From assembly GCA_937966555.1 (NCBI GenBank), contig CALCLY010000036.1:122116-186115 (forward strand): DNA of 64,000 nucleotides. Reading direction: 5' to 3'. Positions 1 to 58,852 of this stretch are shown piece after piece. Under the pieces are notes generated by a model that was given only the letters and a program-made list of their open reading frames with translations, ran no database searches and had not been told where the DNA came from. Within the stretch, counting starts at the first letter, position 1. Each line of letters starts with the position of its first letter. A program made the position numbers and the translations under genes. Source of the stretch: an uncultured Clostridia bacterium (lineage in GTDB: Bacteria; Bacillota; Clostridia; UMGS1883; UMGS1540).

Positions 1-183
1 CATAATTTTCAATTAAATGCTTTTTATACTCCAAAACCTTTGCTTTTGAAAGCTCGCCCCCACAAAGCCACTCTGCAAAAGCTGTTAAATCACGAATATA
101 CTTTTCCGCCGTAGCTTTTGCTTTTTCCTCGCAAATAAGATACTCTTTGAATTTTTTTATTATTTTGTCTGTAATTTTTTTCA
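1..183 (-). CDS. Partial (N-terminal ~60 aa) tyrosine-type site-specific recombinase/integrase; the gene runs off the left edge of the window.
   Basis: Reverse-strand translation starting at 183 reads MKKITDKIIKKFKEYLICEEKAKATAEKYIRDLTAFAEWL..., which resembles the N-terminal SAM-like domain of phage-integrase-family recombinases. It is open to the window edge. Confidence 0.45.
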
Positions 184-351
184 TAGTCCGACAACTCCTT
201 TACTACTATTATTTTACCACTAACATAGTAATATCCCGTGAAGCTGTCAATAATTTGCCGTTTATAAATAAATTTCCGGTATAAAGTTTATTGAATAAGC
301 GGCAATTTGACAAATGTACGGATTTTCAGATATAAATTAATGTCTACTGAA

Positions 352-530
352 CAAATGGTTTTGCGAAACCATTTGTGTGAAACCTTCGGTTTCACACCTA
401 AAAACAGCATAAGAATGCCGTTTTTAGGTTCACAACATTGATTTAATTACTGTTTCAAGTCAACTGTCGGGGGACGACAGCCGACTTGAAAGTGCAAGAC
501 TTTTGGCAAAAAAGCACAAAATCCTTGCAC
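352..530. repeat. Cluster of five consecutive palindromes/stem-loops: 352-375, 375-397, 397-428, 453-491 and 492-530.
   Basis: The first two are perfect 10-bp inverted repeats (caaatggttt/aaaccatttg and gtgtgaaacc/ggtttcacac) and the third has 9-bp arms (cctaaaaac/gtttttagg). A nested imperfect hairpin and a gtgcaag/cttgcac hairpin follow. They sit in the intergenic region between the integrase and the sigma-like gene. Confidence 0.6.
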
Positions 531-658
531 TTGAACAATTACAAAATGCCGAAAAAATTAGTATATGAGTGCATTTTGTAATTGTTCAGCAGCCATTAAA
601 TTAAGCCCGAATATGCAAGCTGACATTTGCTTGTATATTCGGGCTTTTTCTGTTTGTG

Positions 659-1522
659 TCACCAATTACTTTTTATATATTTTCGCAATTTTTCATATGC
701 TCGGTTTACCTCATTTTCAGCAGTCTGTGCCGAGGTTAATTCGTTTTCAATTGCTATTTCCTGATATGTTTTCGACTTTTTCGTAAATCTCAGGCATTCC
801 GGGCATAAGCCGAGATGTGAATATATCATTTCCCGCTCTCTGTAACCGAGCTTTGCAAACGCTTCTTTCAGGAGCTTGTGTAATTCAATTCTCATAAGTA
901 TGTCAAGTGGTTCGGTGGTATAATCGGTAGTTACATCATCCTGTGTGTCATCATCTTCATCGGCATATTTTCTGTAAAAATCAACAATGTTTGTACTCTC
1001 AAGTCCTGCCGTAATAATTTCCGACACATATTGTTCCGAACGCTTGACTTCTTCTGTAATTTTAGATATTGCTTCATTACTGCTGCCGTACCGATAATAC
1101 AAATGCATTATTTTTCGTAAATTTCTGTATGTGGTTTGGCTGCTGCCCGAAAACCCGGTACGCATTGTGCGTATGTAATTATGCACCTCGTTCCACATTA
1201 TACGGACTTTATAGGTTATGAATTGCCCGTCTTTCGATTTATTATAGCTTTTTAGTGCTTTGTATATTCCGCTAACGCATTCCTGCTTTATATCCGCAAA
1301 ATGCCCGTACATAGCATATCTTTGAACAATGTCTGTTACAGTATCATTCAAAACTGGCTCATAATAATGCAAAAACCACATAAGATATTTTTCATCGTTT
1401 TCCGCAAAATATAAATCTATGTATTCCTGAAAATCATCTTTTTTCGGCGGTGCCGGACTCAAACGATAAATATATAGCTCTTTCTCCCATTCCTTCACGG
1501 CACTCACCTCTCTTTCAGCCAT
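659..1522 (-). CDS. Sigma-70 family (ECF-like) RNA polymerase sigma factor, as carried by conjugative/mobilizable transposons.
   Basis: 287 aa. The C-terminal region-4-like HTH reads REREMIYSHLG...YQEIAIENELTSAQTAENEVNRAYEKLRKY, and a region-2-like segment is present upstream. Confidence 0.55.
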   Translation of the reverse strand: MAEREVSAVKEWEKELYIYRLSPAPPKKDDFQEYIDLYFAENDEKYLMWFLHYYEPVLNDTVTDIVQRYAMYGHFADIKQECVSGIYKALKSYNKSKDGQFITYKVRIMWNEVHNYIRTMRTGFSGSSQTTYRNLRKIMHLYYRYGSSNEAISKITEEVKRSEQYVSEIITAGLESTNIVDFYRKYADEDDDTQDDVTTDYTTEPLDILMRIELHKLLKEAFAKLGYREREMIYSHLGLCPECLRFTKKSKTYQEIAIENELTSAQTAENEVNRAYEKLRKYIKSNW

Positions 1523-1524
1523 TT

Positions 1525-2748
1525 TTATACCGTAACACCTTTTTCGACCGCTTTATATAAATTGTGTTTCTCCATATCGTGCTCAAAATCTTCTGCCGTG
1601 TAATTATCGTCACGGCGAAATTTATGCTTTAAGTCCTTTGCCAGTCTTTTTGCTTTTTCCGCAAATTCCTCCGATATAACTCCCTGCGACTTTTCGGCAC
1701 GGATACAACTGCACCGCCTGTTATAAATATCCGTAATTTTATCATTTTTCGCAAGCTCCTTTTGGTTGTTCTTCGCCGCAAACTTTCTGCAAGTGATTCT
1801 TTCGCCGTCGGTAAGTTCAAGCGGCGCAAAACCCATACAATACTTTTGCTTTCTCGCATTTTCCATAAGGAAGTATGTTTCGCAAATTTCGCATTGCCTC
1901 GGATAATGTCCAAACAAAAGTCCTTCAAAGAAATCAGTTAGGATAAAGCTGTAAAATGTTTCAAAATGAAGCCTTTTTACCAACGCTTTCTTATTGCCCT
2001 TTGGAACGGCAATATATTCGGTTGTTATGTTAAATTGGGCTTTATCAAAAATTTTGTTTGCAAGTGTTAAAAGCTCACTTTCGTTGTAATGCTCCAAATC
2101 ATCCAAGCTCCAAACAAACTCCGTCAAATGTTCAAATGCTTTCATCATATCGTTACCGATATTTTCGTAAAATCTCAATATCCGTATTACAAATCCGATA
2201 AATTCGTTTGCCTTTTTTGAAAGCTCCGCATATCCGTCGGGTAGTATGTCAAGCAGCATTGCACCCTCATCTTGCGTGGATACCTTTGCTCTTTGCCTAT
2301 AATAGTCCAATATGAAGTCTGCATTTTCCTTTGTAAAGGTTTCGGATATTGTTTTTCTCTCGCTTTCAATATCCAGATAGCAGAACGGACTGAAATTTGG
2401 GAGTACATCAAGAATATACAAAATCTCTTTTCCAGTCCTTACAAATTCATAATCGTTTATATAACCTCTTTCCATTGAGGAGGACAATATGTGATTGTCA
2501 AAGGTCATTGCGGCTATCCTTGCACCGTTGTCATTTTCCTCATATCGGTTAAGAAAATCGACGGCAAAACTGCCGACAGTAAATTTATTTTTGTCTATGA
2601 AGGTAAACTTATCTCTGTAATCAACTGTGAAAAACTCTATTTTATCCGGCATATCGAACACCTCAAAACTTTTCAATTTTTTTTGCAAACTTTTATTGCG
2701 AAATATATTTCGTATATCTATTATACCATAACTTTGCTTGTATTTCAA
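1525..2748 (-). CDS. Hypothetical mobile-element protein with a C-terminal Cys cluster (CxxC...YC...C). A truncated homologue lies at 14373..15005.
   Basis: 407-aa ORF overlapping the sigma-like gene by one codon. The C-terminal motif HYPRQCEICETYF...QKYC...ITCRKF parallels KPCKCCGHYF...EYC...PCNEF in the 14373 ORF. Confidence 0.5.
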   Translation of the reverse strand: MKYKQSYGIIDIRNIFRNKSLQKKLKSFEVFDMPDKIEFFTVDYRDKFTFIDKNKFTVGSFAVDFLNRYEENDNGARIAAMTFDNHILSSSMERGYINDYEFVRTGKEILYILDVLPNFSPFCYLDIESERKTISETFTKENADFILDYYRQRAKVSTQDEGAMLLDILPDGYAELSKKANEFIGFVIRILRFYENIGNDMMKAFEHLTEFVWSLDDLEHYNESELLTLANKIFDKAQFNITTEYIAVPKGNKKALVKRLHFETFYSFILTDFFEGLLFGHYPRQCEICETYFLMENARKQKYCMGFAPLELTDGERITCRKFAAKNNQKELAKNDKITDIYNRRCSCIRAEKSQGVISEEFAEKAKRLAKDLKHKFRRDDNYTAEDFEHDMEKHNLYKAVEKGVTV

Positions 2749-2940
2749 GGGGTTTAGCTGATTGCGGTTTTTATTTTAATACACTTTCGCAATACTTACC
2801 TTTTTGTAAAATCCCTTACATTCTATATATCGGAAGGGGACAAGACAAGCCCTTTCAAATCTTTGAAATGAGATGTGATGCCTATGATTGTATCAATCTG
2901 ACACGAACAATACTAATATGAAAAACGGAGGAATTTAATT

Positions 2941-3237
2941 ATGGGAGCTTATTCAAAAAGGCAGTTTGCAAGGTCAGATTTTGACAGAACGGGATACGAA
3001 TTTAACGAAACAGAGGGAGTGTTTTCCGGAACACTCGTATGTAAAGCTTGGGGTAAAAAGTGTAACATTGTTTGTTATGCGGATTTAGATGACGGGAGAA
3101 AAATAATTTGCACCGCTTATCAAAAGCCGGGCAACTATTTTGGACTACCTGATATCGAGGTCGGTACAAGAATAATTCTTGAGTTCAAAAGAAGCAAACA
3201 AGGTAAAATGCGACTCAATTCAGTACGGGCAGAATAA
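2941..3237 (+). CDS. Hypothetical small protein (98 aa).
   Basis: ORF with a strong RBS (ACGGAGGAATTTAATT-ATG). No recognizable domain. Confidence 0.4.
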   Translation: MGAYSKRQFARSDFDRTGYEFNETEGVFSGTLVCKAWGKKCNIVCYADLDDGRKIICTAYQKPGNYFGLPDIEVGTRIILEFKRSKQGKMRLNSVRAE

Positions 3238-3284
3238 CTGTCCTGTACTGTAACGAGCAGGGAGCTTGTATTGCACAAACTCCG

Positions 3285-3345
3285 AAAACGGCGAGAGTTC
3301 TTAATGAACTCCCGCCGATGATTTTAGGGAGAACCCTAATACCCC
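3285..3345 (+). promoter_or_regulatory. Putative oriT: an inverted repeat immediately upstream of mobC-relaxase.
   Basis: IR ggcgagagttc (3290-3300) and gaactcccgcc (3306-3316) with a 5-nt loop. It sits just upstream of mobC, the canonical oriT position in MobC/MOB modules. Confidence 0.35.
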
Positions 3346-3376
3346 GAACAAAATTTTAATAGCAGGAGATGATTTT

Positions 3377-3664
3377 ATGAATGAGAGAACAACCGCAATT
3401 TATGTGCGTGTTACCGAAAAAGAAAAATCACGCATAAAACAAAAAGCAGACAAGTGCGGTTTATCGCAATCGGAGTATTTAAGAAAGAGAGCTTTGGGAT
3501 ATTCGCCCAAAGCTCTTTTGCCGGAAAGCTTTTATGAATTTTCGAGTAAGCTCGGCGAAGTGTATGAGCAAATCAACAAGGAATATAACACAGAAGTTGA
3601 GGAAAAACTTTTATCCCTGCTTGATGAAATTCAGCTAAAGCTACTGACACCCGAAAACGAATAA
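3377..3664 (+). CDS. mobC: Relaxosome accessory protein MobC (ribbon-helix-helix).
   Basis: 95 aa, AIYVRVTEKEKSRIKQKADKCGLSQSEYLRKRALG, which is MobC-like. It lies directly upstream of the relaxase with an RBS. Confidence 0.7.
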   Translation: MNERTTAIYVRVTEKEKSRIKQKADKCGLSQSEYLRKRALGYSPKALLPESFYEFSSKLGEVYEQINKEYNTEVEEKLLSLLDEIQLKLLTPENE

Positions 3665-3671
3665 AGGAGGT

Positions 3672-5048
3672 ATGCGTGACGTGGCTACAACAGGATTTTG
3701 GCCCGTTAAGGGCAGTTTGAAAGATGTTGTAAATTATGCGGATAACCCCGATAAAACCACCAATTCGAAATACCTCAATAAAGATTTGGCAAACGCACTT
3801 AAATATGTCGAAAACGATAGTAAAACGGATATGAAAATGTTTGTAAGCGGAATCAACTGCCCGACGGTTAGGGCTTATGAACAGATGATGGTAACAAAAC
3901 GCCGTTACGGAAAACTTGGTGGAAATGTTGCATATCACGGTTATCAAAGCTTTAAATCAGGCGAAGTCACTCCCAAAGAAGCACATAAAATCGGCATTGA
4001 AACCGCAAAGCGTATGTGGGGCGGAAACTACGAAATCGTTGTCACAACGCACCTCAATACCGAAAATATCCATAATCATTTTGTAGTCAATTCAGTATCG
4101 TTTAAGACGGGTCGGAAATTTGAAAATCATATTTCAGATCATATCCGTCTGCGTGAAATTTCTGACGTGGTATGCAAGGAATTTAACAAATCGGTAATTG
4201 AAAACGCAAAATTTTATAACAGCGATAAAAAATCATATTGGATACACAAGCAAGGCAAGAAAACACATCGGGATATTTTGCGTGACGATGTGGATTTTGC
4301 GGTTAAAACCTCCGGAAATCTTATGGAATTTGAGCGGATAATGATAAATATGGGATATTCGTTTAATCGAAATATTATGTCGGCACACCCGTCTGTTATT
4401 GCTAAAGGCTGGCAAAGACCTGTTCGCATTGATAGCTTGGGAGAAGAATATTCAACCGAAGGGCTTGTAAAACGAATTGCGGATAACAAGATTTTTGTAA
4501 GCTCTTTCGCCAAAAGCGAGCGAGTACACAAAACAAAGCCAAAGCATACGCCGTTTGCGGAAATGGAATATCAACTGCGGCGGGTAAAATATATGGACAC
4601 ATTAGAGGCTATGTTTTATCTACTCTTAGAGTTGTTAAAACCGTCAAATCCTACCACTAATTACAAGCCACCTTTATCTCCGTTTATGCGTGAGGAAATA
4701 AGAAAGTTTGAACAATACCAAAAGCAGTTCAAGCTCTTGCACGATGAAAAAATCAACACCGTGTCGGAGCTTGAATTTTTTATATCCGACCTATCCAAAC
4801 AGATTAACGATTTGGAAAAGGAACGCTCAAATGCCGATAACAAACGCAGACGAGCCACAACAGATGCGGACAAGAAAATGTATAAGTCTGAAATCAGGGA
4901 TATATCCGCAAAGATAAAACCTATAAGAGAAAAACTGAAAATTGCCAAATCCACATTAGAGTCTGTGCCAAAAGTACAAGAACTGCTTAATATTGAGCGA
5001 GATATGGAAAACAAAATTTTACACAAAGAGAGGAGCAAAATACGATGA
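3672..5048 (+). CDS. MOB-family relaxase/mobilization nuclease.
   Basis: 458 aa. It has the relaxase N-terminal domain with the histidine triad HLNTENIHNHFVVNSVSF and a coiled-coil C-terminus. It forms an operon with mobC. Confidence 0.8.
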   Translation: MRDVATTGFWPVKGSLKDVVNYADNPDKTTNSKYLNKDLANALKYVENDSKTDMKMFVSGINCPTVRAYEQMMVTKRRYGKLGGNVAYHGYQSFKSGEVTPKEAHKIGIETAKRMWGGNYEIVVTTHLNTENIHNHFVVNSVSFKTGRKFENHISDHIRLREISDVVCKEFNKSVIENAKFYNSDKKSYWIHKQGKKTHRDILRDDVDFAVKTSGNLMEFERIMINMGYSFNRNIMSAHPSVIAKGWQRPVRIDSLGEEYSTEGLVKRIADNKIFVSSFAKSERVHKTKPKHTPFAEMEYQLRRVKYMDTLEAMFYLLLELLKPSNPTTNYKPPLSPFMREEIRKFEQYQKQFKLLHDEKINTVSELEFFISDLSKQINDLEKERSNADNKRRRATTDADKKMYKSEIRDISAKIKPIREKLKIAKSTLESVPKVQELLNIERDMENKILHKERSKIR

Positions 5049-5890
5049 AAAATATTACATATATAGAAATTGAAAAATTGAAACCATTTGAAAATCATCC
5101 TTATAAGGTTGTGGAGAATGAAGAAATGAACAATTTAACGCAAAGCATTAAAGAAAACGGAATTTTATCACCGTTTATTGTGCGACCTATCGAAAATGGC
5201 GAATATGAAATAGTATCGGGGCATCGCAGACTATTTGCAGGCAAACAGGCAGGACTTACGAAAATTCCGGCAATAGTATGTGAAATGGATAGAGATACTG
5301 CCGCTATTACATTGGTTGACAGCAATCTTCATAGAGAAAATATTTTACCAAGCGAAAAAGCATTCGCATATAAGCTGAAGGCAGAGGCTTTATCTCATCA
5401 AGGCAAACGCACAGATTTAACTTTGGAGCAAGTTGCACCGAAGTTAAGTACGGAAACAATCGGCGAAAGCGAAAATATAAGTAAGGATACCGTAAAGCGA
5501 TACATACGCTTGACCAAGCTTTTGCCAAAATTGTTGGAACTCGTTGATGAGGCGCGAATTGCTTTCACTCCGGCAGTCGAGCTTTCCTATCTAAATGACA
5601 TCGAGCAACAGGATTTAATTGAAATAATCGAAAGCGAGGATTGCACTCCGTCATTATCACAGGCGGTGCGTATGAAAAAGTTAAGTCAACAAGGACTACT
5701 TACAGACGATAAAATCCTTGAAATTATGTCGGAGGAAAAGGCAAATCAAAAGGAACGAATAAAAATTCCAACAGAGCGAGTGCGAAAATTCTTTCCCCAA
5801 AGTTACAGCACATCGCAAATTGAAGAAGCAATTATTAAACTGTGCGAAACGCATTATCGCAAAAAACAGCGGCAGCAACAAGAAAGGTAA
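5045..5890 (+). CDS. ParB-like nuclease domain protein (ParB/Srx family).
   Basis: 281 aa with the ParB N-terminal motif IVSGHRRLFAGKQAGLTKIPAIV. Its start overlaps the relaxase stop. Confidence 0.75.
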   Translation: MKNITYIEIEKLKPFENHPYKVVENEEMNNLTQSIKENGILSPFIVRPIENGEYEIVSGHRRLFAGKQAGLTKIPAIVCEMDRDTAAITLVDSNLHRENILPSEKAFAYKLKAEALSHQGKRTDLTLEQVAPKLSTETIGESENISKDTVKRYIRLTKLLPKLLELVDEARIAFTPAVELSYLNDIEQQDLIEIIESEDCTPSLSQAVRMKKLSQQGLLTDDKILEIMSEEKANQKERIKIPTERVRKFFPQSYSTSQIEEAIIKLCETHYRKKQRQQQER

Positions 5891-5902
5891 GGTGAGTTTT
5901 AT

Positions 5903-6085
5903 ATGACAAAACAAGCTAACAGTCTATACGAGTTTTTTTCTCCGACTTTAGATAAGGACAATTTGGATTTTGAATTAAAAATCGGCGGTACAACCTACGA
6001 GATATGCACTCGCTTTAATATCAATGGCAAACAAAGCATATTGGAGCAGTTCAAAAACTTGATTTTATCAGAAAATTTGATTTAA
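5903..6085 (+). CDS. Small hypothetical protein (60 aa) between the ParB-like gene and the serine recombinase gene.
   Basis: ORF only, tightly packed in the operon. Confidence 0.3.
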   Translation: MTKQANSLYEFFSPTLDKDNLDFELKIGGTTYEICTRFNINGKQSILEQFKNLILSENLI

Positions 6086-6123
6086 TACATTCGACAATTT
6101 GTGTCGGGCATAGTAAAATAGCA

Positions 6124-7860
6124 ATGAAGCCTTTGCTATGCCCGGTTGTCGGAAAGGAGAAACGAATTATGACAACTCAAAATATTATAGGGCAAACAAC
6201 AGAAGAAATAACTGCATTGTACGGAAGATTATCACAAGATGACGGTTTGGAGGGCGAAAGCAACAGCATATTCAATCAAAAAGAAATTCTGATGAAATAT
6301 GCAAAAGAGCACAATCTGAAAAATCTGAGATTTTTTATTGATGACGGAATTTCAGGTACAACCTTTGAGCGAAGCGGCTTTAAGGAAATGCAAGCACTTG
6401 CAGAAGCCGGAATTGTAAAAACTATTGTGGTAAAAGATTTATCCCGTTTCGGCAGAAACTACATTGAAGTCGGCGAATATCTTGAAATCAAATATCCCAC
6501 TCTCGGCGTAAGGTTTATATCTATTCAGGAAAATGTTGACACAATGCAAAACACAGGTGCGGAAATGATGCCGTTTCATAATATATTTAATGAATGGTAC
6601 GCCGCACAGACAAGCAAGAAAATTCGTGCCGTATGGCAGATGAAAGCCTCAAGCGGAAAGCGTGTCGGCTCATCTGTCCCTTACGGATATATGAAATCTC
6701 CCGAAGATAAGGAAAAATGGATAATTGATGAAGAAGCCGCAGAGGTTGTCAGAAAGATATTTTCACTATCTCTCTCCGGGCGAGGTATTTCACAAATCGC
6801 CCGTCAATTAGAGCAAGAAAAAATACTTATTCCTACGGCATATAAAATAGAAAAAGGATTATCCGCATCGCACAAGTATCCCGAAAAACCCTATTATTGG
6901 GATTCATCAACCGTTGCAGGAATAATTGATAACAGACAGTATACGGGATGTACTGTAAATTTCAAAACAACAACAGTAAGCTACAAAGTTCATAGGGTTA
7001 TACGTAAATCCGAAGATGAGCAGCAAATAATTCCTAACACACAAGAACCGATTATAGATGAGGACTTGTGGTTACGAGTTCAAGAGCTTCGTCAGCATAA
7101 GAGAAGACCGACATCTACGGGAAGGACAAGCCTGTTTTCGGGTTTGGTTTATTGCCCCGATTGCGGAGCAAAATTGCATTTTGCCGCCGCTAAGAGTATG
7201 ACAAGACAGCAGGAGCATTTCAGATGTTCAAATTACAAGAGCGGTCGGGGTGAATGTCAAATACATTTCATAAGAGATGTAGTTCTTGAAAAAATAGTAT
7301 TTGAAGCCATAAGCAACTTATCTGATTTTGTCAGATGTTATGAATCGGTATTTTTGTACTTGATGGCAACAAAAAATCAAACGTCAAGAAAAAGTAAGCT
7401 TCAAAAACTGAAAAGCAAGGTGGAAAACGAAAAAAGACGAATATCCGAGCTTGATGTGATTATTTCACGCATTTACGAGGACAATATTTTAGGCAAGATA
7501 AGCGATGAAAGATATTCCCGAATGTCTGTTATGTACGAAAACGAGCAAAAAGAGCTTATAAAAACAGTTTCCGCCGAAGAAAAAGAATTGGAAACAGCCG
7601 AGCAAAAAAATGTTGATATGCGGCTGCTGCTAAAAACGCTGCGAGAATTGACCGATTTTAAGGAGCTTACTCCGACAATCGTTAATTCTTTGATACAACG
7701 GATAGAAGTTCACAACAACGATAAGTATGATGGTCATTGCCACGTAAAAGTCGATATTTACTTTACTGCCGTGGGAATGATTGATGTTCCTGATGAAAAA
7801 GAAATATTGGATATAATAAATAAAATCCAAGATAATCCACAGATGTACAAGGTTGGATAA
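6124..7860 (+). CDS. Large serine recombinase (TnpX/TndX-type integrase of the element).
   Basis: 578 aa. The N-terminal resolvase catalytic domain reads YGRLSQDD...VVKDLSRFGRN, and a recombinase/zinc-ribbon C-terminal domain (CPDCGAKLHF...CSNY) follows. The gene is at the terminus of the element. Confidence 0.85.
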   Translation: MKPLLCPVVGKEKRIMTTQNIIGQTTEEITALYGRLSQDDGLEGESNSIFNQKEILMKYAKEHNLKNLRFFIDDGISGTTFERSGFKEMQALAEAGIVKTIVVKDLSRFGRNYIEVGEYLEIKYPTLGVRFISIQENVDTMQNTGAEMMPFHNIFNEWYAAQTSKKIRAVWQMKASSGKRVGSSVPYGYMKSPEDKEKWIIDEEAAEVVRKIFSLSLSGRGISQIARQLEQEKILIPTAYKIEKGLSASHKYPEKPYYWDSSTVAGIIDNRQYTGCTVNFKTTTVSYKVHRVIRKSEDEQQIIPNTQEPIIDEDLWLRVQELRQHKRRPTSTGRTSLFSGLVYCPDCGAKLHFAAAKSMTRQQEHFRCSNYKSGRGECQIHFIRDVVLEKIVFEAISNLSDFVRCYESVFLYLMATKNQTSRKSKLQKLKSKVENEKRRISELDVIISRIYEDNILGKISDERYSRMSVMYENEQKELIKTVSAEEKELETAEQKNVDMRLLLKTLRELTDFKELTPTIVNSLIQRIEVHNNDKYDGHCHVKVDIYFTAVGMIDVPDEKEILDIINKIQDNPQMYKVG

Positions 7861-7870
7861 CAAGGAAAAT

Positions 7871-7900
7871 GGAGTAGCTCCTTGATTTTGGAACTACTCC
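7871..7900 (+). terminator. Hairpin 10 bp after the serine recombinase stop (an 11-bp stem with one mismatch and an 8-nt loop). It could be a terminator or part of the element-end recombination site.
   Basis: ggagtagctcc-ttgatttt-ggaactactcc. Confidence 0.4.
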
Positions 7901-7976
7901 ATAAAAAACTTCCTTATCTGGCGTTGGCAAACGTCAACCGACTTTTTAAACAGCCCCTTTTCGTTTTTTTTATTTA

Positions 7977-9194
7977 TTATTTATTTACTATTCTTAAAGT
8001 TTCCCTTGCTATGGCAAGCTCTTCGTTTGTGGGAAGGAGGAGAACTTTAACTTTCGAATCGGGTGCGGAAATTACGCGTCTTTCGCCTTTTACGTTATTT
8101 GCTTCGTCATCGATTTTAACACCGAGGTATCCGAGATAATCATCGCAAATAAGTTTGCGTGCTTTTATATCGTTTTCGCCGACACCTGCCGTAAATGCGA
8201 TAGCGTCAACACCATTCATTGCAGCGGCATATGCGCCGATGTATTTTGCAACTCTGTATCTGAAAGCTTCAAGAGCCGCTTCTGCCTGATGGTTACCAGC
8301 TGCCGCAGCTTTGTCAACATCGCGGAAGTCGGAAGAAATGCCGCCGCTCATGCCCAGGATACCGGACTTTTTGTTGAGTATATTGAGCATTTCGTTAATG
8401 TCGATTCCTTCATGATTGCAGATAAACTGAAGCGCAGCGGGGTCAATGTCGCCGGAGCGAGTTCCCATGATAAGTCCCTCCAAAGGAGTGAGACCCATTG
8501 ATGTGTCAACACATTTGCCGCCTATGGAAGCAGATATGCTCGCGCCGTTTCCGAGATGGCATACGATAACTTTAGCTTTGTCGGGATCAAGGTTTGCCAT
8601 TTTTATAGCTTCGCCCGAAACAAACATATGGCTTGTGCCATGGAAGCCATAGCGGCGGAGCTTGTATTTTTTATAATAATTATAGGGGATAGCATAAAGA
8701 TATGCTTTTTCTTCCATTGACATGCCGAACGCCGTGTCAAATACAGCAACGTTGGGCTTACCCGGCATTGCTGCTTCGCATGCTTCAATACCTATAAGGT
8801 TTGCGGGGTTGTGAAGCGGTCCCAAATCAAAACACTCACGGATGACTTTTTTAACGTCCTCGTCAACCTGAATTGATTCCGTATATGTATTTCCGCCGTG
8901 GAGTACACGGTGACCGATGGCATAAATATCGGAAGTGTCTGCGATAACACCGTGCTCTTTATCCGTGAGCGCATCAAGAACCAATTTTATTGCATCTTTG
9001 TGCGAGGGCATGGGTGTTTCGGTTTCGTATTTGTCCTTGCCTGTGGGCTTATGCGTGAGTTTCGAGCCGTTTATGCCGATTCTTTCGCAAAGACCTTTTG
9101 CAAGAACCTGTTCGCTTTCGCTGTCAATAAGCTGATACTTAAGCGAAGAACTTCCGCAGTTTACTATGAATATTTTCATGTTTTTCTCCTTCAA
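7977..9194 (-). CDS. ackA: Acetate kinase.
   Basis: 405 aa with the N-terminal MKIFIVNCGSSSLKYQLID motif and acetate kinase signatures throughout. Confidence 0.9.
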   Translation of the reverse strand: MKEKNMKIFIVNCGSSSLKYQLIDSESEQVLAKGLCERIGINGSKLTHKPTGKDKYETETPMPSHKDAIKLVLDALTDKEHGVIADTSDIYAIGHRVLHGGNTYTESIQVDEDVKKVIRECFDLGPLHNPANLIGIEACEAAMPGKPNVAVFDTAFGMSMEEKAYLYAIPYNYYKKYKLRRYGFHGTSHMFVSGEAIKMANLDPDKAKVIVCHLGNGASISASIGGKCVDTSMGLTPLEGLIMGTRSGDIDPAALQFICNHEGIDINEMLNILNKKSGILGMSGGISSDFRDVDKAAAAGNHQAEAALEAFRYRVAKYIGAYAAAMNGVDAIAFTAGVGENDIKARKLICDDYLGYLGVKIDDEANNVKGERRVISAPDSKVKVLLLPTNEELAIARETLRIVNK

Positions 9195-14017: not shown

Positions 14018-14109
14018 GGACGGGTATCGAAGTGGTCATAACGGGGCTGACTCGAAATCAGTTTGTCGGTAATACCGGCACGTGGGTTCGAATCCCACCC
14101 CGTCCGCCA
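14018..14109 (+). tRNA. tRNA-Ser (anticodon CGA).
   Basis: 92 nt. The acceptor stem is GGACGGG/CCCGTCC with discriminator G and an encoded CCA. The anticodon loop is CTCGAAA, a long variable arm is present, and the T-arm is GGTTCGAATCC. Confidence 0.85.
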
Positions 14110-14112
14110 ATT

Positions 14113-14160
14113 ATGCGGGTTTGCTTAACTTTTGCGAACCCGCATTTACTTTATGTTTTT
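14113..14160 (+). terminator. Rho-independent terminator after the tRNA.
   Basis: Stem atgcgggtt/aacccgcat followed by a T-rich tract. Confidence 0.5.
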
Positions 14161-14372
14161 TGCCCAATTTTGCCTTAAACCTCACCATTATTCGTTACCG
14201 TACAGTAATTCAAGCGGCTTGAAATACGGTATAATTATACTGCACACATTGTCGCGATAGCCGCTGTATGTAGTAAGCTGAATACTCGGTTTGACGCGTT
14301 CAAGCCATTGCTGCATTTATCGAATACCTTGCCGAGGGAACAGATAAAGCTCTTGCGGAATTTACGGCGTTT

Positions 14373-15005
14373 ATGGGCAGTGATTTTGCAGCGCCTCAAA
14401 AAGATTCGGCGCATTATATGATGAATTTTATCAATGCTATGACGGCAAGTATTGAGCAGAAAAAAGCTGAAATCAAGTTTTATATAAATGATATTATGAA
14501 AGATAAAAACGGTTCCCTTAATCAGCGTTTTGTAAACTGCGGAAAAGAGAGCAAACTGTTTGATTTTCAATTTGATTCGCATTTTGATTTTGAAAACGAT
14601 GTAATTATCTATCCTCTCGAAACTATGGATGATGTAATTCGCTTTGATATTATGCAGATGCTTGCAAATAAGATTAAATTCAAGCCGTGCAAATGCTGCG
14701 GTCATTATTTTGTGCCCGGCGGGCGCACGAACAGCGAATACTGCGACAGAATTATGCCCGGCGAAACAAGACCTTGCAATGAGTTCGGCGCACTTAAAAC
14801 ATTTGATATCACTCATAAAAACGACGATATTCATAAAGCCTATATCACCGCTTACCGCCGTATGGACTCACGCCAGCGCGCAAAGCTCATCACTAAAGAT
14901 GAATTCAAGCAGTTCGGCAAAATTGCCCGTGCCGAGCGTAAAAAATGCTATAACGGCGAAATAACTCTTGATCAGTTCAAAACTTGGCTTGATGATTTTA
15001 GATAA
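14373..15005 (+). CDS. N-terminally truncated homologue (210 aa versus 407 aa) of the mobile-element protein at 1525..2748. It is probably a remnant of an element once integrated at the tRNA.
   Basis: It shares the C-terminal Cys-motif architecture, and there is an in-frame stop at 14292-14294 upstream with no earlier start. It is 264 bp downstream of the tRNA-Ser 3' end. Confidence 0.45.
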   Translation: MGSDFAAPQKDSAHYMMNFINAMTASIEQKKAEIKFYINDIMKDKNGSLNQRFVNCGKESKLFDFQFDSHFDFENDVIIYPLETMDDVIRFDIMQMLANKIKFKPCKCCGHYFVPGGRTNSEYCDRIMPGETRPCNEFGALKTFDITHKNDDIHKAYITAYRRMDSRQRAKLITKDEFKQFGKIARAERKKCYNGEITLDQFKTWLDDFR

Positions 15006-15016
15006 ATGTATAGCGA

Positions 15017-15046
15017 AAGCAGCAGATTGCGGTCTGCTGCTTTTGT
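15017..15046. terminator. Bidirectional hairpin terminator between convergent genes.
   Basis: Stem agcagcag/ctgctgct with an 8-nt loop and a flanking T-run. Confidence 0.5.
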
Positions 15047-15049
15047 GGA

Positions 15050-18000
15050 TTATACTCTGTTTGAAGTTCTATATGTTTCCTGTGCCAATGTAGCCATAAC
15101 CGTATCATAAAAGCGTTTATCCTCAAACAATTTTGAAAACGCCTTCATCTGTTCCATATAACAGTCCTGCGCAACCTGTTTGAACACTTCGGGAAATATT
15201 GACTTTGTATAAACTTCCTCATCATTTTTCTGTGCCTGACGGTTTAGTTTCTTATTTTCCTTTGCTCTGTTGTAAAGTGTTTCAACAATAACTCTGTCAC
15301 CCTCCGAAAAAATACCGTCAAACCGTTCATTTATTTTGCTGATAATTTCTTCAAGCAAAGCATCTTCTTCGGACATAAATCCGGCCGTTTTTAATGACTT
15401 CGGATTTTCGAGTGTTTTTGTTGCTTCCGTCGGTGCTAAACTAATATCTCCGTGAAAATCCTCTTGAATTTTATAGTATTCAAGTTTCAGCTTATCCTCC
15501 AAATCAACATTGCGTGTGTCGCTGACCGGCGGCAGCATTTTTTCAAGGTACTGCGTATATGTGTATTCCTCCTGCAAAGACCTGTCAAACATCCTGCTTA
15601 TCTGCGTAATATATGAATACCACTTATTAAAATTTTTAACCGTTTTCTTGACCTCAAATCTATCTTCCTCACTCATCGCCTCATATCTTGCCACAACGGG
15701 TTTTAAAAGGCTTGTGAGCTTTCCCAAATCGCTGTCATTTTGGTCTTTTTTTAAAAATATCTTTAAAAATTCCTGTATATCATTTTCGTCATATATTCCT
15801 TTTTGACGGAGAAGCTGTCTTGTATCGTAAATCATATTGACATTGATTTCTTCATCAAGATATGTAGCCTCGTAGTACGGCTCAAAGGCTTTTTGTATGT
15901 CCTCTGCTGTGTTTACAAAATCCAGTACAAATGTATCTGTTTTGCCCGGACAGGTTCGGTTAAGCCTTGAAAGGGTCTGCACGGCTTTGACATCTTTCAG
16001 TTTTTTATCGACAAACATTGTGTGCAGCAACGGCTCGTCAAATCCTGTCTGATATTTTTCCGCAACAACAAGCATTGCATATTCGTCTTTATTAAATTCG
16101 GACGGCAGCTGACTTTCTTTTATGGTCGTTCCGTCCTTTCGCTTGTTCAAGCCTTCTTCGGTGTACTCAAATTCGCCGTCTTTCACAACGCCCGAAAAGG
16201 CAACAAGAATTTCAACATCATCATATCCGTGACTTTCAATATAGCGTTTCATCTCGTGATAATATCTTATTGCGTGAAGCCGCGACGCCGTTACAACCAT
16301 TGCTTTTGCTCTGCCGTTTATTTTATTTTTTGTAACGCTTCTGTATGTTTCAATAATAATGGCGGTTTTCTGTGCAATGTTGTGAGGGTGCAGTTCCTTG
16401 TACCTCAAAACAGCCTTTACTGCTTTGTTTGCCGGCACTTCGGGGTTGTCCGGCGTTTGTTTTGCAATGCGATAACAGGTTTTATAGTGCATAAAATTTT
16501 TCAGTACATCTAAAATAAAGCCCTCTTCAATAGCTTGTTTCATAGAATAAATATGAAACGGTCTGAAACCTTTGCCATTTTCTCTTGGTGTGCCGAATAT
16601 TTCAAGCGTTTTTTCTTTCGGCGTGGCGGTGAAGGCAAAAAACGAAAGGTTTTTGTGTTTCCCGTGCGACAGCATTTCGTCAACAAGCTTGTCCTCTTGG
16701 TCTTTCACCTCATCTTCCGCAATACCTTCAAGCTCGGCATATTCTTTTAATGCGTCCTCTGTGTCGGCAAGAGCAGTTTTCAATTTTGCGGCATTTTTCC
16801 CTGTCTGCGAATTGTGAGCCTCATCAACTATAACTGCAAACCGCCTGTCTGTTGTGTCATCAATTTCATTGTATATATACGGAAATTTCTGAATTGTTGT
16901 TATAATAATTTTCTTTCCGTTGTTTATAGCCGCTTTTAAATCTGCTGAATGTTTGTCATCATCAATTTTTTCGACAACGCCTTTTGTATGGTCGAATCCG
17001 TAAATTGTGTTCTGTGTTTGGCGGTCAAGTACAGTACGATCATTGACAACTATAACAGATGTGAATATAGGTTTGTTGTCCTTATCGTGCAGTTCGGTAA
17101 GCTGATAGGCAAGCCAAGCAATGGAATTGCTCTTGCCGGAGCCGGCGGAGTGCTGAATAAGGTAATTATGCCCCGAACCGTTGTCCTTAACATCTGCGAC
17201 CAGCTTTGATACAACATCTAACTGATGAAATCGCGGAAATATCAGTTTAACCGATTTCTTTTTGACTTCTTTTCCGTTTGAATAGACAATCTTTTCTTCC
17301 TCAACTCTCTGCAAAAACCTTTGAAGTATATTTAAAAGACTGTCCTTTGTCAAAACCTTTTCCCAAAGGTAGCTTGTGGCGTACCCGTTTTTGTTTTCGG
17401 GGTTTCCTTTGCCGCCGACATTTCCGGCGCCGTTTGAGCCTTGATTAAACGGCAGAAAAAATGTTTTTTCTCCGTCGAGCTTTGTTGTCATTGCAACTTC
17501 GTATAAATCAACGGCGAAATATACAAGAAAACGGTTGTCAAAGCGAAAACAAAACTCTTTCGGATTTCTGTCCGTCATAAATTGCTTTTTTGCATTTGCA
17601 ACGCTTTGTCCCGTTAATTGGTCTTTCAGCTCCAAAGCAACAACAGGTATTCCGTTTACGGACAGCACCATATCAATAGAATTTTCATTTTCGGTTGAAT
17701 ATTTAAACTGCCTTGTGCAGGTTACAATGTTTGAATTGTAATCGGCAAGAACGGAATCGTTGAGCGTTGTGTTTTCTTTGAAAGAGACAATTTTTATTTT
17801 TGCACCCCTATCTTCAAAGCCGTGCTTTAAAACATAGGTCAATCCGAACGTGTCAACACATTCCTGAAAACGCTTGTATAATCTCTTTTCAGCGTCTGCA
17901 CCATAATTTCTTTCGTACTTTTGCCACTCTTTCGGCTGCGTTGCCTTTATGTATTGTATCAGTTTTGGCAGGTCAATGGAAGTTTCCCGGTTATATGTCG

Positions 18001-18082: not shown

Positions 18083-18085
18083 AGG

Positions 18086-28664: not shown

Positions 28665-28692
28665 ATTTATATCCTCCTTTTGATGTGATGTT

Positions 28693-58755: not shown

Positions 58756-58852
58756 ATACAGAAATTTCATTTTTAGCTTTAAATTAAAAGCATAAAGAGA
58801 GGGTGGTGCAAAACGAAATTGCAATCACCCTCTTTAATATATTTATTATTTT

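What the first reader, a model, noticed from the sequence alone, without database searches (positions are those of the whole stretch)
1..7976. Mobilizable element that carries both a tyrosine recombinase (partial) and a terminal large serine recombinase alongside a MobC-relaxase-ParB-like module and a sigma-like gene
The set of sigma-70-like protein, conserved DUF, MobC, MOB relaxase, ParB-like nuclease and a TnpX/TndX-type serine recombinase at the end matches Clostridial mobilizable or conjugative transposons. An additional tyrosine recombinase reading off the left edge suggests either a composite or nested element or a second recombinase for another function.

The element abuts the 3' end of ackA (40-120 bp away). 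This is relevant because a second ackA 3' end copy exists at 58862.
Basis: partly seen in the sequence, partly recalled or inferred. Interest (0 to 1): 0.5.

Follow-up and report, generated by a model that had tools for sequence, protein, structure and literature searches.

The report
Mobilizable transposon with promoter-flipping recombinase
The window's left end is the last 7.9 kb of a 21.3-kb mobilizable transposon that its serine recombinase inserted into the transcription terminator behind the acetate kinase gene. The second (tyrosine) recombinase is not an integrase: it flips a promoter in front of the element's cargo genes.

Summary
Window 1-7928 holds, in order:
- the first 61 codons of a tyrosine recombinase
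- a sigma-70-like gene
- DUF6076
- MobC
- a MOBP relaxase
- ParB
- a TnpW-like ORF
- a TnpX-type large serine recombinase (LSR)

A metagenome contig 100% identical to the window supplied the missing left part. The element is 21,317 bp (window -13,388 to 7,928). It has imperfect terminal inverted repeats, TnpV at the far end and AA at both junctions. It splits the ackA terminator hairpin between ackA and mreB. Removing it in silico restores the empty site seen in sister strains.

Near-identical copies sit in at least ten other chromosomal contexts, mostly terminator-like GGGCTGT...AA sites, so it has moved recently.

The tyrosine recombinase is an internal, conserved, Xer-like 279-aa enzyme. 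Directly 3' of it, two inverted dif-like repeats flank a 234-bp segment that carries a perfect sigma-70 promoter. This segment occurs in both orientations in natural assemblies: 1 ON, 21 OFF and 4 deleted in this family, and 2 ON, 6 OFF in a 75%-identical family. It is a phase-variation switch for the cargo operon.

The ackA 3' copy at 58.8 kb is real but unrelated to the element.

Verdict: a Tn4451/Tn6104-type element with an added inverton. Interest is moderate.

The parts
2..184 (-). First 61 codons of the 279-aa Xer-like tyrosine recombinase. The rest of the gene, and the invertible promoter it serves, lie off the left edge at window-equivalent about -655 to 184.
   Evidence: Translation. 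Phage_int_SAM hits. The full gene is L001 11339-12178 on a contig 100% identical to the window. Catalytic R, HxxR, H and Y are present in the alignment to XerA/XerC-like structures.
341..596 (.). 256-nt hairpin-rich insertion (MITE-like) in the recombinase-sigma spacer, flanked by the 8-nt direct repeat TAAATTAA (333-340 and 597-604). A passenger, absent from sister copies.
   Evidence: L108/L110 and others lack it at otherwise 99% identity. Sequence read. No Rfam family reaches threshold.
659..1522 (-). Sigma-70-family protein (287 aa).
   Evidence: Pfam Sigma70_r2. NCBIfam sigma70-ECF superfamily above cut-off.
1525..2652 (-). DUF6076 protein (375 aa as called in public assemblies).
   Evidence: Pfam PF19553, E=5e-45. 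Called length.
2941..3237 (+). 98-aa ORF of unknown function, conserved in all copies. First gene of the rightward transfer/recombination block.
   Evidence: ORF list. Called in every related contig. No Pfam or NCBIfam hit.
3289..3317 (.). 12-nt inverted repeat CGGCGAGAGTTC / GAACTCCCGCCG, 60 nt upstream of mobC. Candidate oriT by inference only.
   Evidence: Repeat found. In MOBP7 IMEs a putative oriT lies upstream of mobC (PMC12084326). Not tested here.
3377..3664 (+). MobC/NikA-like relaxosome accessory protein (95 aa).
   Evidence: Pfam NikA-like, E=4e-17.
3681..5048 (+). MOBP-type relaxase (455 aa, MobA/VirD2 nuclease domain).
   Evidence: Pfam PF03432, E=4e-37. NCBIfam TraI/MobA(P) and SAG1250 hits below cut-off.
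5045..5890 (+). ParB/Noc/Spo0J-family protein (281 aa).
   Evidence: Pfam ParB_N and HTH_ParB. NCBIfam parB_part above cut-off.
5903..6085 (+). 60-aa TnpW-like ORF directly upstream of the LSR.
   Evidence: Pfam TnpW, E=0.007, below cut-off. An annotated TnpW occupies the same position in the Tn4451-type element of pD610-HI2.
6169..7860 (+). TnpX-type large serine recombinase (563 aa). This is the integrase/excisionase of the element.
   Evidence: Resolvase, Recombinase, Zn_ribbon_recom and DUF4368 domains. Best PDB hit is the TnpX N-terminal domain 2mhc, E=2.9e-34. The identical protein occurs in three different chromosomal contexts.
7869..7902 (-). 13-bp hairpin followed by a T-run on the ackA strand, 26 nt inside the element end. 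It probably replaces the ackA terminator that the insertion destroyed.
   Evidence: Terminator scan. RNA fold of the ackA 3' region.
7908..7928 (.). Right terminal inverted repeat, ACTTCCTTATCTGGCGTTGGC. Its partner at the left end is AGGCGAGACCAGATAAGGAAGT, off-window.
   Evidence: Sequence shared by all insertion contexts ends here. Left end read.
7929..7930 (.). AA crossover dinucleotide, present at both junctions. Position is uncertain by 1-2 nt.
   Evidence: Junctions ...GGCTAA|AGGCGAG... and ...GTTGGC|AAACGTC.... In-silico excision restores the empty site except for one extra G.
7931..7966 (-). Remaining ackA-proximal part of the ackA intrinsic terminator hairpin (the target site). The other part lies next to mreB, 21.3 kb to the left.
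   Evidence: Empty sites in L008, L012, L015 and L016. The intact hairpin has a 23-bp stem, -35.7 kcal/mol.
7977..9179 (-). ackA (acetate kinase, 400 aa). Host flank, intact.
   Evidence: Pfam Acetate_kinase, E=7e-147. The identical protein is listed in 232 blocks of the contig index, and the 24 longest contigs read include both filled and empty sites.

Best explanation
Window 1-7928 is the right 37% of a 21,317-bp integrative mobilizable element (mobilizable transposon) of the Tn4451/Tn6104 type.

Insertion (boundaries shown; recombination chemistry inferred). Its TnpX-like large serine recombinase, encoded at the extreme right end, inserted the circular form by a 2-bp (AA) crossover into the intrinsic terminator hairpin between ackA and mreB. 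The ends are imperfect inverted repeats with core CCAGATAAGGAAGT. Their outer parts resemble the GGGCTGTGGCT / AGCCACAGCCC arms of the target hairpins. The element therefore hops between terminator-like sites and leaves coding sequences intact. It brings its own hairpin plus T-run, which can terminate ackA.

Transfer (inferred from gene content). After excision, transfer depends on the element's MobC plus MOBP relaxase and on a helper conjugative element. The element has no T4SS genes.

The tyrosine recombinase (inversion shown; expression effect inferred). The gene that runs off the left edge is not an integrase. It is a 279-aa Xer-like invertase. Directly 3' of its stop codon lie two inverted dif-like sites, ACCACATAAT-TCAA-ATTATGTGGT and ACCACATAAT-TTGA-ATTATGTGGT. 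They flank 234 bp that carry a consensus promoter, TTGACA-17-TGnTATAAT.
- In the orientation found in this strain (OFF), the promoter points back at the recombinase gene, and its transcript meets the first repeat plus a T-run, which reads as a terminator.
- After inversion (ON), the promoter reads through the second repeat into the cargo operon: an HTH regulator, two Zn-ribbon proteins, an SPFH/Band_7-GYF protein, DUF6591 and a small membrane protein. It may also reach the AbiE, methyltransferase and DndB-like genes beyond.

The element thus carries a phase-variable cargo module.
For: Gene content: Pfam, NCBIfam and PDB searches.

Boundaries:
- L001, L133 and L138 come from one contig that is 100% identical to the window over 27.4 kb. 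Together they give the whole element, 21,317 bp.
- Left junction: mreB...GGGGCTGTGGCTAA|AGGCGAGACCAGATAAGGAAGT.
- Right junction: ACTTCCTTATCTGGCGTTGGC|AAACGTC...ackA.
- Sister strains with the identical AckA protein have ackA-terminator-mreB and no element.
- Deleting the element plus one TT gives a sequence collinear with those empty sites.

Mobility:
- The identical LSR protein, within 99.1%-identical element DNA, occurs after ackA, after pheT and after an AraC/dCache gene.
- LSR variants of 94-96% identity occur in four more contexts.
- Left ends adjoin at least six different host genes.
- Many flanks are terminator arms of the form GGGCTGT...AA.

Family:
- TnpV sits at the far end and a TnpW-like ORF next to the LSR. 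This is the order annotated in a Tn4451-type element on pD610-HI2.
- C. difficile Tn6104-6106 have the same parts list (PMC3158075).

Inverton:
- Repeats and spacing.
- A 12/12 promoter with extended -10 inside the segment, and a terminator-like first repeat on the promoter strand.
- Three recombinase families share the arms CACATAAT/ATTATGTG but have different central tetranucleotides: TCAA/TTGA, TGTG/CACA and CAGA/TCTG. In each, the tetranucleotide in one repeat is the reverse complement of that in the other.
- In the 75%-identical family, L127 and L128 show a clean inversion with 100% identical flanks and swapped inner repeat halves.
- In the window's own family, L155 is inverted relative to L156, with 100% identical flanks and Tyr recombinase 271/279 identical to the window's.
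- The catalytic residues are intact.
Against: - No read-level or experimental evidence for a circular intermediate, excision or transfer.
- The AA crossover is inferred from junction comparison. One extra G remains after in-silico excision.
- In this strain and in 20 other assemblies the switch is in the OFF orientation. Only one assembly of the window-type family shows ON.
- Four assemblies lack the segment altogether. That could equally be ordinary deletion between two 24-nt near-identical repeats.
- No expression data. The function of the gated operon is unknown (no PADLOC hits).
- A weak hairpin plus T-run lies between the second repeat and the first cargo gene.
- The TnpW assignment is below threshold.
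- oriT and the helper element are not identified.
- An IS256-family insertion and a 256-nt insertion show that this copy is accumulating passengers.
Confidence: 0.8

Rival explanations
1. Composite or nested element. The tyrosine recombinase is the integrase of a second integrative island (recombinase plus Zn-ribbon/Band_7, AbiE, methyltransferase and DndB cargo) that inserted into, or accreted next to, a short LSR element.
For: - The cargo downstream of the recombinase is the variable part. L002 is 99.9% identical to L001 up to the first repeat but only 92.8% beyond it.
- Cargo sets differ between relatives.
- L115 shows that a roughly 9-kb core lacking this region exists.
Against: - No second pair of end-like or att-like repeats lies inside the 21.3 kb.
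- The recombinase is 279 aa with no arm-binding domain.
- Its position between the sigma gene and the cargo is conserved in divergent relatives.
- TnpV, the partner of the LSR end, lies beyond the cargo at the outer boundary.
- The deletion in L115 starts inside the recombinase gene, not at a recombination site.
- The only sites next to the gene are two inverted repeats 234 bp apart, and they demonstrably invert.
Confidence: 0.04
2. The tyrosine recombinase is a Xer-like resolvase or maintenance enzyme. It would act at a single dif-like site to resolve multimers of the excised circular element, or it would provide an alternative Xer/dif-type integration route.
For: - Best matches are XerA, XerD and XerC (NCBIfam sub-threshold; PDB).
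- The repeats look like dif sites: palindromic arms ...CATAAT / ATTATG... around a short spacer.
- Four assemblies carry a single site.
- A ParB homologue on the element hints at a stage outside the chromosome.
Against: - Two sites in inverted orientation flanking a consensus promoter are conserved in three divergent families, with reverse-complementary central spacers in each pair.
- Inversion is directly observed.
- Resolution needs directly repeated sites on a dimer and gives no reason for a promoter-bearing segment between two sites.
Confidence: 0.06
3. Cassette exchange. The dif-like repeats are insertion and excision points for small modules (as with pdif modules or integron cassettes), and the recombinase shuffles cargo rather than switching a promoter.
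For: - The 258-nt unit is present or absent exactly at the repeats.
- The cargo next to the module varies.
- The same recombinase-plus-repeat module sits in unrelated element backbones.
Against: - No further copies of the site bound the variable cargo.
- The tet block in L118 is inserted inside the segment, not at a repeat.
- The segment's content (promoter plus hairpin) is conserved across families, which is unlike exchangeable cassettes.
- Both orientations occur with identical flanks.
Confidence: 0.07
4. A decaying, immobile relic. The gene set is real, but the copy in this genome no longer moves and the arrangement has no current function.
For: This copy carries a frameshifted IS256-family transposase in the 185-aa gene next to TnpV and a 256-nt insertion.
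Against: - The LSR, relaxase, MobC, ParB, TnpV and tyrosine recombinase ORFs are all intact.
- Copies carrying the same IS occur in at least four different host contexts.
- Element DNA is 99.1% identical across three contexts.

Together these show that movement post-dates these insertions.
Confidence: 0.03

Closest known systems
Tn4451/Tn4453 family of integrative mobilizable elements (C. perfringens, C. difficile; TnpX, TnpV, TnpW, TnpZ)
   Same: - A TnpX-type LSR (with DUF4368) at one extreme end, preceded by a small TnpW-like ORF; TnpV at the other end; cargo in between. This is the same order as the annotated Tn4451-type element on pD610-HI2.
- The LSR N-terminal domain matches the TnpX structure 2mhc at E=2.9e-34.
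- 2-bp crossover and low site specificity (review PMC5704250).
[quoted passage not shown]
- Mobilizable, with no T4SS.
   Different: - The relaxase is MOBP-type (PF03432) with MobC, not the MOBV/Pre-type TnpZ.
- The LSR is only about 41% identical to the pD610-HI2 enzyme.
- 21.3 kb, against about 6 kb for Tn4451 (own knowledge).
- The junction dinucleotide appears to be AA, against GA for Tn4451 (own knowledge).
- It also carries ParB, sigma, DUF6076, defence genes and a recombinase-inverton module.
C. difficile mobilizable transposons Tn6104, Tn6105 and Tn6106 (Brouwer et al. 2011, PMC3158075)
   Same: TnpX-related LSR, a TnpV homologue, a mobA/mobL-type mobilisation gene, sigma-factor-like genes, a toxin-antitoxin/accessory module, 11-16 kb in size, a 2-bp direct repeat, and excision to a circle shown for Tn6104.
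   Different: - No tyrosine recombinase or invertible promoter is reported there.
- Those elements sit inside an ICE (Tn6103), not in chromosomal terminators.
- Sequence relatedness to them was not measured here.
MOBP7 IMEs of gut Firmicutes (Faecalibacterium; PMC12084326)
   Same: PF03432 relaxase with a conserved MobC gene immediately upstream, no coupling protein or T4SS, and abundant in human-gut Clostridia.
   Different: That paper's integrase types and target sites were not compared with this element. Nothing in the passages read mentions inverton-gated cargo.
Invertible promoters (invertons) with a cognate tyrosine invertase: E. coli fimS with FimB/FimE, C. difficile RecV switches (cwpV and others), Bacteroidales invertible promoters including those on ICEs and in front of resistance genes (PMC8748976)
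   Same: - A short promoter-bearing segment between inverted repeats, with the recombinase gene directly adjacent.
- Both orientations coexist in natural populations.
- The downstream genes encode envelope or surface-type proteins.
- Location on a mobile element has a precedent in Bacteroidales.
   Different: - The recombinase is Xer-like (279 aa). It gives only weak sub-threshold hits to the FimB/E-type invertase models.
- The repeats are dif-like palindromes.
- The host is a Clostridial LSR-driven mobilizable transposon or ICE.
- The gated operon (HTH, Zn-ribbon, SPFH, DUF6591) has no known function.
Xer/dif and pdif-module systems
   Same: The recombinase is closest to XerA/XerD/XerC. The sites have ...CATAAT / ATTATG... 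arms around a short asymmetric centre.
   Different: The recombinase is a single protein, not a XerC/XerD pair. Two inverted sites lie 234 bp apart around a promoter. The observed reaction is inversion, not dimer resolution or module exchange.

Membership tests
Tn4451/Tn4453-type (TnpX-driven) mobilizable transposon | Large serine recombinase of the TnpX type encoded at one end of the element | tested here: met
   Resolvase, Recombinase, Zn_ribbon_recom and DUF4368 domains. Best PDB hit is TnpX 2mhc, E=2.9e-34. The gene ends 68 nt before the element end.
Tn4451/Tn4453-type (TnpX-driven) mobilizable transposon | TnpV homologue at the opposite end | tested here: met
   A PF14198 TnpV (128 aa) is the first gene inside the left end on the contig identical to the window (L138 3525-3911) and in relatives.
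Tn4451/Tn4453-type (TnpX-driven) mobilizable transposon | TnpW homologue next to the recombinase | tested here: inconclusive
   The 60-aa ORF at 5903-6085 hits Pfam TnpW at only E=0.007, 16.5 bits against a cut-off of 25. Its position matches the annotated TnpW in pD610-HI2.
Tn4451/Tn4453-type (TnpX-driven) mobilizable transposon | TnpZ, a Mob/Pre (MOBV) relaxase | tested here: not met
   The relaxase here is PF03432 (MOBP) with MobC. Tn4451 relatives encode MOBV relaxases (PMC5704250; 'plasmid recombination protein'). The element works like Tn4451 but is not a close member. It resembles Tn6104 (mobA/mobL) more closely.
Tn4451/Tn4453-type (TnpX-driven) mobilizable transposon | 2-bp crossover, precise excision to a circle, and several target sites | tested here: inconclusive
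   AA is present at both junctions, and in-silico excision restores the empty site except for one G. At least ten insertion contexts were found. No circular joint could be searched for, because there is no read-level access.
Integrative mobilizable element (IME) | Own integrase and own relaxase, no T4SS or coupling protein, defined ends in a host replicon | tested here: met
   The complete gene list of the 21.3 kb has an LSR, MobC and a relaxase, and no VirB4/VirD4-type genes. Ends and empty sites are. oriT was not identified.
Invertible promoter (inverton) with cognate tyrosine invertase | Catalytically intact tyrosine recombinase adjacent to a pair of inverted repeats that flank a short segment | tested here: met
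   R, HxxR, H and Y align to XerA/XerC-like structures. The 24-nt repeats are 100% complementary, lie 234 nt apart and start 10 nt after the stop codon.
Invertible promoter (inverton) with cognate tyrosine invertase | Promoter inside the invertible segment | tested here: met
   TTGACA-17-TATAAT with a TG extension, 12 of 12 matches. It is conserved in the two other recombinase families. This is a consensus match only, with no transcript data.
Invertible promoter (inverton) with cognate tyrosine invertase | Both orientations present in natural populations, with breakpoints in the repeats | tested here: met
   Window-type family: L155 is inverted relative to L156, with 100% identical flanks. The 75%-identical family: L127 and L128 against L124, with the inner halves of the repeats swapped. 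The window's own strain is in the OFF orientation.
Invertible promoter (inverton) with cognate tyrosine invertase | Orientation changes expression of the downstream genes, and inversion depends on the adjacent recombinase | not testable with these tools
   Needs reporter, RNA or genetic experiments.
Tyrosine integrase of a nested integrative element or prophage | Integrase at the edge of its own element, direct att repeats bounding that element, and usually an arm-binding N-terminal domain | tested here: not met
   The gene lies 8.5 kb from one end and 12.7 kb from the other of a single TIR-bounded insertion. There are no internal end or att repeats. The protein is 279 aa with only SAM-like and catalytic domains. 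No phage genes are present.
Xer/dif chromosome or plasmid dimer resolution | A single dif-type site resolved by XerC/XerD (or a single Xer) when directly repeated on a dimer | tested here: not met
   NCBIfam XerA/XerD/XerC scores are far below the equivalog cut-offs: 138 against 220, and 124 against 330. Two inverted sites flank a promoter, and the observed product is an inversion.

The most novel reading that the evidence does not exclude
The 279-aa Xer-like recombinase, its two dif-like inverted repeats and a consensus promoter may form a portable 'expression-gating cassette' that has spread among mobile elements of gut Clostridia.
- It occurs in LSR-driven mobilizable transposons, in front of a Zn-ribbon/SPFH membrane operon and defence genes.
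- It occurs in ICE-like elements, in front of dockerin/SLH/fn3 surface proteins.
- In one case a tet ribosomal-protection gene has been captured behind its promoter.

The cassette would let the element, rather than the host, phase-vary its cargo. Thousands of uniformly 279-aa homologues in metagenomes suggest a large family. I found no description of it in the literature I could search.
Probability: 0.45. Interest if true: 0.55.

Novelty: new variant of a known kind. Interest (0 to 1): 0.42.

Why it matters
- It settles what the two recombinases do. One moves the element. The other switches its cargo on and off.
- It gives exact ends, a target motif (terminator arms GGGCTGT...AA) and natural empty, filled and miniature versions. 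These make the LSR reaction directly testable and could be useful as a terminator-targeting integrase.
- It shows that gut Clostridial mobile elements can carry their own phase-variation module in front of accessory and defence genes. This affects how cargo expression, fitness cost and phage resistance should be read from metagenomes.
- It is nevertheless built from known kinds of parts. It refines current understanding rather than overturning it.

Tried and rejected
Routes that failed or led nowhere:
2. The one genome-contig scan, run with MreB, found no genome of this species; the best hit was 74%.
3. The one metagenome-contig scan, run with the DndB-like fragment, hit a contig that ends 1.7 kb further on, at the IS.
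4. Viral-contig scans gave only two distant LSR relatives and no tyrosine-recombinase relative. Neither the ON-specific nor the OFF-specific switch junction was present, so that negative result says nothing.

The route that worked: the listing of cluster members gave protein ids that the look-up of encoding contigs accepted.

Ideas considered and dropped:
- The ackA 3' copy at 58.8 kb as an att duplicate. It has its own terminator and lies beside a glycan-utilisation cluster. Strain L017 has an intact ackA followed by a similar terminator and a glycan cluster with a 68%-identical GFO_IDH gene.
- The 62.2-kb match as the element's missing left junction, or as a sign of rearrangement. It is a paralogous intergenic repeat between a peptidase gene and ThrE genes.
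- A structured RNA in the 256-nt insertion at 341-596. No Rfam family reached threshold.
- The odd inverted junction in L006. It rests on an 8-nt microhomology at a contig end and is probably an assembly chimera.
- My early estimate of about 19.8 kb. It was superseded by the measured 21,317 bp once the IS256-family insertion was seen.

Full report
**1. Observation**

- A 61-codon N-terminus of a tyrosine recombinase runs off the left edge (2-184, minus strand).
- On the minus strand: a sigma-70-family gene (659-1522) and a DUF6076 gene (1525-2652).
- On the plus strand: a 98-aa ORF, a NikA/MobC gene (3377-3664), a PF03432 relaxase (3681-5048), a ParB-family gene (5045-5890), a 60-aa ORF with a sub-threshold TnpW hit (5903-6085), and a large serine recombinase (LSR) with Resolvase, Recombinase, Zn_ribbon_recom and DUF4368 domains (6169-7860).

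ackA follows on the minus strand (7977-9179). The best solved-structure match of the LSR is the N-terminal domain of TnpX (2mhc, E=2.9e-34). The 'second ackA 3' end' is also real: 58846-58902 is 84% identical over 57 nt.

**2. Extending the window and finding the ends**

Exact-protein look-ups found a 122-kb human-gut metagenome contig (ERZ918356 k127_179552). It is 100% identical to the window over the 27.4 kb they share and continues to the left. Three overlapping pieces of it (L001, L133, L138) give the complete element.

Contigs that encode the identical AckA protein include several with no element. In these, ackA is followed by a perfect 23-bp-stem terminator and then by mreB, DUF2344 and a radical-SAM gene.

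On the filled contig the junctions are as follows:
- Left: mreB is followed by ...GGGGCTGTGGCTAA|AGGCGAGACCAGATAAGGAAGT..., and TnpV is the first gene inside.
- Right, inside the window...ACTTCCTTATCTGGCGTTGGC|AAACGTCAACCGAC..., 48 nt from the ackA stop codon.

The element is 21,317 bp, spanning window-equivalent -13,388 to 7,928. Its ends are imperfect inverted repeats with the core CCAGATAAGGAAGT. AA occurs at both junctions. Deleting the element plus one TT in silico gives a sequence collinear with the L008/L012 empty sites except for a single extra G.

The order of the whole element, in window orientation, is:
- left inverted repeat
- TnpV
- a 185-aa gene split by a frameshifted IS256-family transposase
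- a 73-aa ORF
- on the minus strand: DndB/DpdB-like DGQHR protein, type II methyltransferase, AbiEii, AbiEi, a 137-aa membrane protein, DUF6591, SPFH/Band_7-GYF, two Zn-ribbon proteins and an HTH_26 regulator
- the invertible segment
- tyrosine recombinase
- a 256-nt passenger insertion
- sigma, DUF6076
- on the plus strand: the 98-aa ORF, MobC, relaxase, ParB, TnpW-like ORF, LSR
- right inverted repeat

The element has no T4SS or coupling-protein gene.

**3. How it inserts**

The target is an intrinsic terminator. The insertion splits the ackA hairpin, which folds at -35.7 kcal/mol when intact. The element supplies a 13-bp hairpin plus T-run on the ackA strand, 26 nt inside its end. That hairpin can replace the lost terminator.

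Evidence for recent movement:
- The identical LSR protein, in element DNA 99.1% identical to the window, is found after ackA, after pheT and after an AraC/dCache gene.
- LSR variants of 94-96% identity lie in four more contexts.
- Left ends abut at least six different host genes.
- For the pheT site, a left junction (L103) and a right junction (L108), from contigs of two different samples, have flanks that fit together as GGGCTGTGGCT-AA[element]AA-AGCCACAACCCC. That places the insertion in the loop of a terminator hairpin.

The recurring host half-site is (A/T)GGGCTGT...AA. The outer parts of the element's ends resemble these hairpin arms. The element therefore behaves as Tn4451-type elements are described to: an LSR, a 2-bp crossover and several targets (PMC5704250).

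Excision, circularisation and transfer are inferred, not shown.

**4. What the tyrosine recombinase does**

The properties of the protein:
- It is 279 aa and Xer-like. NCBIfam XerA/XerD/XerC hits are far below the equivalog cut-offs, and the best structures are XerC-like 4a8e and XerA 5hxy.
- It has all the catalytic residues and no arm-binding domain.

Ten nucleotides after its stop codon lie two 24-nt sites, ACCACATAATTCAAATTATGTGGT and ACCACATAATTTGAATTATGTGGT. They are 100% complementary to each other and 234 nt apart. The segment between them carries a 12/12 sigma-70 promoter with an extended -10, and a conserved hairpin.

In the window's strain the promoter points back at the recombinase gene. 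There the first repeat plus TTTTTATTTT reads as a terminator. The second repeat has no T-run on the strand that leads to the cargo.

The same architecture occurs in two other recombinase families:
- a divergent allele in related LSR elements (L102)
- a 75%-identical enzyme in ICE-like elements, where it sits between MobC-relaxase and a dockerin/fn3/SLH surface-protein operon

All three families share the arms CACATAAT/ATTATGTG. Their central tetranucleotides differ: TCAA/TTGA, TGTG/CACA and CAGA/TCTG. In each pair, the tetranucleotide in one repeat is the reverse complement of that in the other.

Inversion is directly visible in public assemblies:
- In the 75%-identical family, L127 and L128 carry the 290-nt stretch exactly reversed relative to L124, with 100% identical flanks. 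A polymorphism in the repeats has swapped sides, which places the crossover in the central tetranucleotide.
- In the window's own family (recombinase 271/279 identical), L155 is inverted relative to L156 with 100% identical flanks.

Across the window-type family I counted 21 OFF assemblies, 1 ON, and 4 in which the segment is missing and a single repeat remains.

The recombinase is therefore best read as the invertase of a promoter switch that gates the cargo operon. That operon encodes an HTH regulator and membrane-associated Zn-ribbon, SPFH and DUF6591 proteins of unknown function. Whether the ON transcript reaches the AbiE, methyltransferase and DndB-like genes is unknown.

**5. The ackA copies**

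The 58.8-kb fragment has the last roughly 19 codons of an ackA allele followed by its own, different terminator. It sits beside a GH106/GFO_IDH glycan cluster. Strain L017 has its intact ackA followed by a similar terminator and a glycan cluster with a GFO_IDH gene 68% identical in DNA to the window's. The fragment is a relic of an alternative junction and not a product of the element.

A separate repeat at 62098-62282 copies the ackA-mreB intergenic sequence, including an intact hairpin. It is an unoccupied look-alike target, not the element's left junction.

**6. Comparison with known systems**

The transposition module (LSR, TnpW-like ORF, TnpV, inverted-repeat ends, 2-bp crossover, several targets) works like Tn4451/Tn4453. 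It has the same gene order as an annotated Tn4451-type element on a Klebsiella plasmid.

It fails one defining feature of that family. Its relaxase is MOBP with MobC rather than the MOBV TnpZ. On gene content it is closer to the C. difficile mobilizable transposons Tn6104-6106, which have a TnpX-like LSR, TnpV, mobA/mobL, sigma-like genes and a 2-bp repeat (PMC3158075). It also resembles the MOBP7 IMEs of gut Firmicutes (PMC12084326).

The switch works like fimS with FimB/E, the C. difficile RecV switches and the Bacteroidales invertible promoters, some of which also ride on ICEs (PMC8748976). It differs in using a Xer-like enzyme and dif-like repeats. In the literature searches I could run, I found no description of this recombinase-inverton module or of an LSR-driven mobilizable transposon carrying one. 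That is absence of evidence only.

**7. Verdict**

'Mobilizable element with terminal LSR' and 'second recombinase for another function' are right. 'Composite or nested element' and the relevance of the ackA copy are wrong.
- The element is a new variant of a known kind: a Tn4451/Tn6104-type IME that targets terminators and carries a self-contained phase-variation cassette in front of its cargo.
- Interest is moderate (0.42). The parts are familiar, but the combination is tidy, widespread in gut metagenomes and directly testable.

Noticed in passing
window 341-596 (direct repeats at 333-340 and 597-604): A 256-nt, strongly hairpinned insertion flanked by the 8-nt duplication TAAATTAA. It is absent from otherwise 99%-identical copies of the element. 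It looks like a MITE. No Rfam family matches, and there is no second copy in the window.
   Followed up: partly
L009 11230-11530, L013, L014 (one orientation); L011 11237-11520 (other hairpin arm, opposite orientation): A non-coding mini-element of about 280 bp sits in the ackA terminator of other strains. Its 27-nt terminal inverted repeats, AGCCACA(G/A)CCCG..AAGGAAGTATTG, resemble the ends of LSR-element variants (L132, L135). It is probably a non-autonomous derivative moved in trans. The L008/L012 'empty' sites may retain 11 nt of it.
   Followed up: partly
window 62098-62282: A second copy (86-95% identical) of the ackA-mreB intergenic repeat lies between an M14/LysM peptidase gene and ThrE genes. 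It includes an intact hairpin, GGGCTGCTTAAAAAGTCAACCGACTTTTTAAACAGCCC. It is a dispersed intergenic repeat and a potential unoccupied target for the element.
   Followed up: partly
window 58790-58914: A fragment of an ackA 3' end (84% identical) with its own terminator lies next to a GH106 / GFO_IDH / Cu_amine_oxidN1 glycan cluster (51.4-58.8 kb). Strain L017 has its real ackA followed by a similar cluster. This suggests the cluster arrived, or moved, together with a flank of ackA.
   Followed up: partly
window 14018-21795 (tRNA-Ser(cga) 14018-14109; DUF6076 fragment 14373-15005; type I R-M genes 15050-21795): The tRNA-Ser(cga) gene is an integration hot spot. This strain has a DUF6076 remnant plus a type I restriction-modification system and no integrase there. 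Sister strains carry different integrase-bearing islands at the same place (L008, L009, L013).
   Followed up: no
L118 10852-14343: In an ICE-like relative, a 3.2-kb block with a tet(W/O/32)-like ribosomal-protection gene is inserted inside the invertible segment. It lies downstream of the consensus promoter and on the same strand. The resistance gene would therefore be driven by the switch promoter in either orientation.
   Followed up: partly
L132, L134, L135, L136 (17.7-20.8 kb of each locus) compared with L133: Near-identical elements carry different defence cargo after AbiE. The window type has a type II methyltransferase plus a DndB-like protein. Others have a type I R-M-like N6_Mtase plus Methylase_S, with OLD/AAA_15 genes. 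This points to modular exchange of defence genes.
   Followed up: no
L138 4407-5632 (window-equivalent about -12,314 to -11,089): A frameshifted IS256-family transposase splits the 185-aa gene next to TnpV in the window-type element. In the P0122-type relatives a similar IS sits instead between the DndB-like gene and the 73-aa ORF.
   Followed up: no
L115 1-3400: A roughly 9-kb deletion derivative of the element. It runs from the LSR to sigma, followed by a 142-aa N-terminal fragment of the tyrosine recombinase, then TnpV, with an IS3-family insertion beyond.
   Followed up: partly
window 27168-27467 and 27984-28283: A 300-nt direct repeat (98% identical) inside the 1112-aa ORF at 25470-28808. 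This indicates a repeat-domain protein.
   Followed up: no
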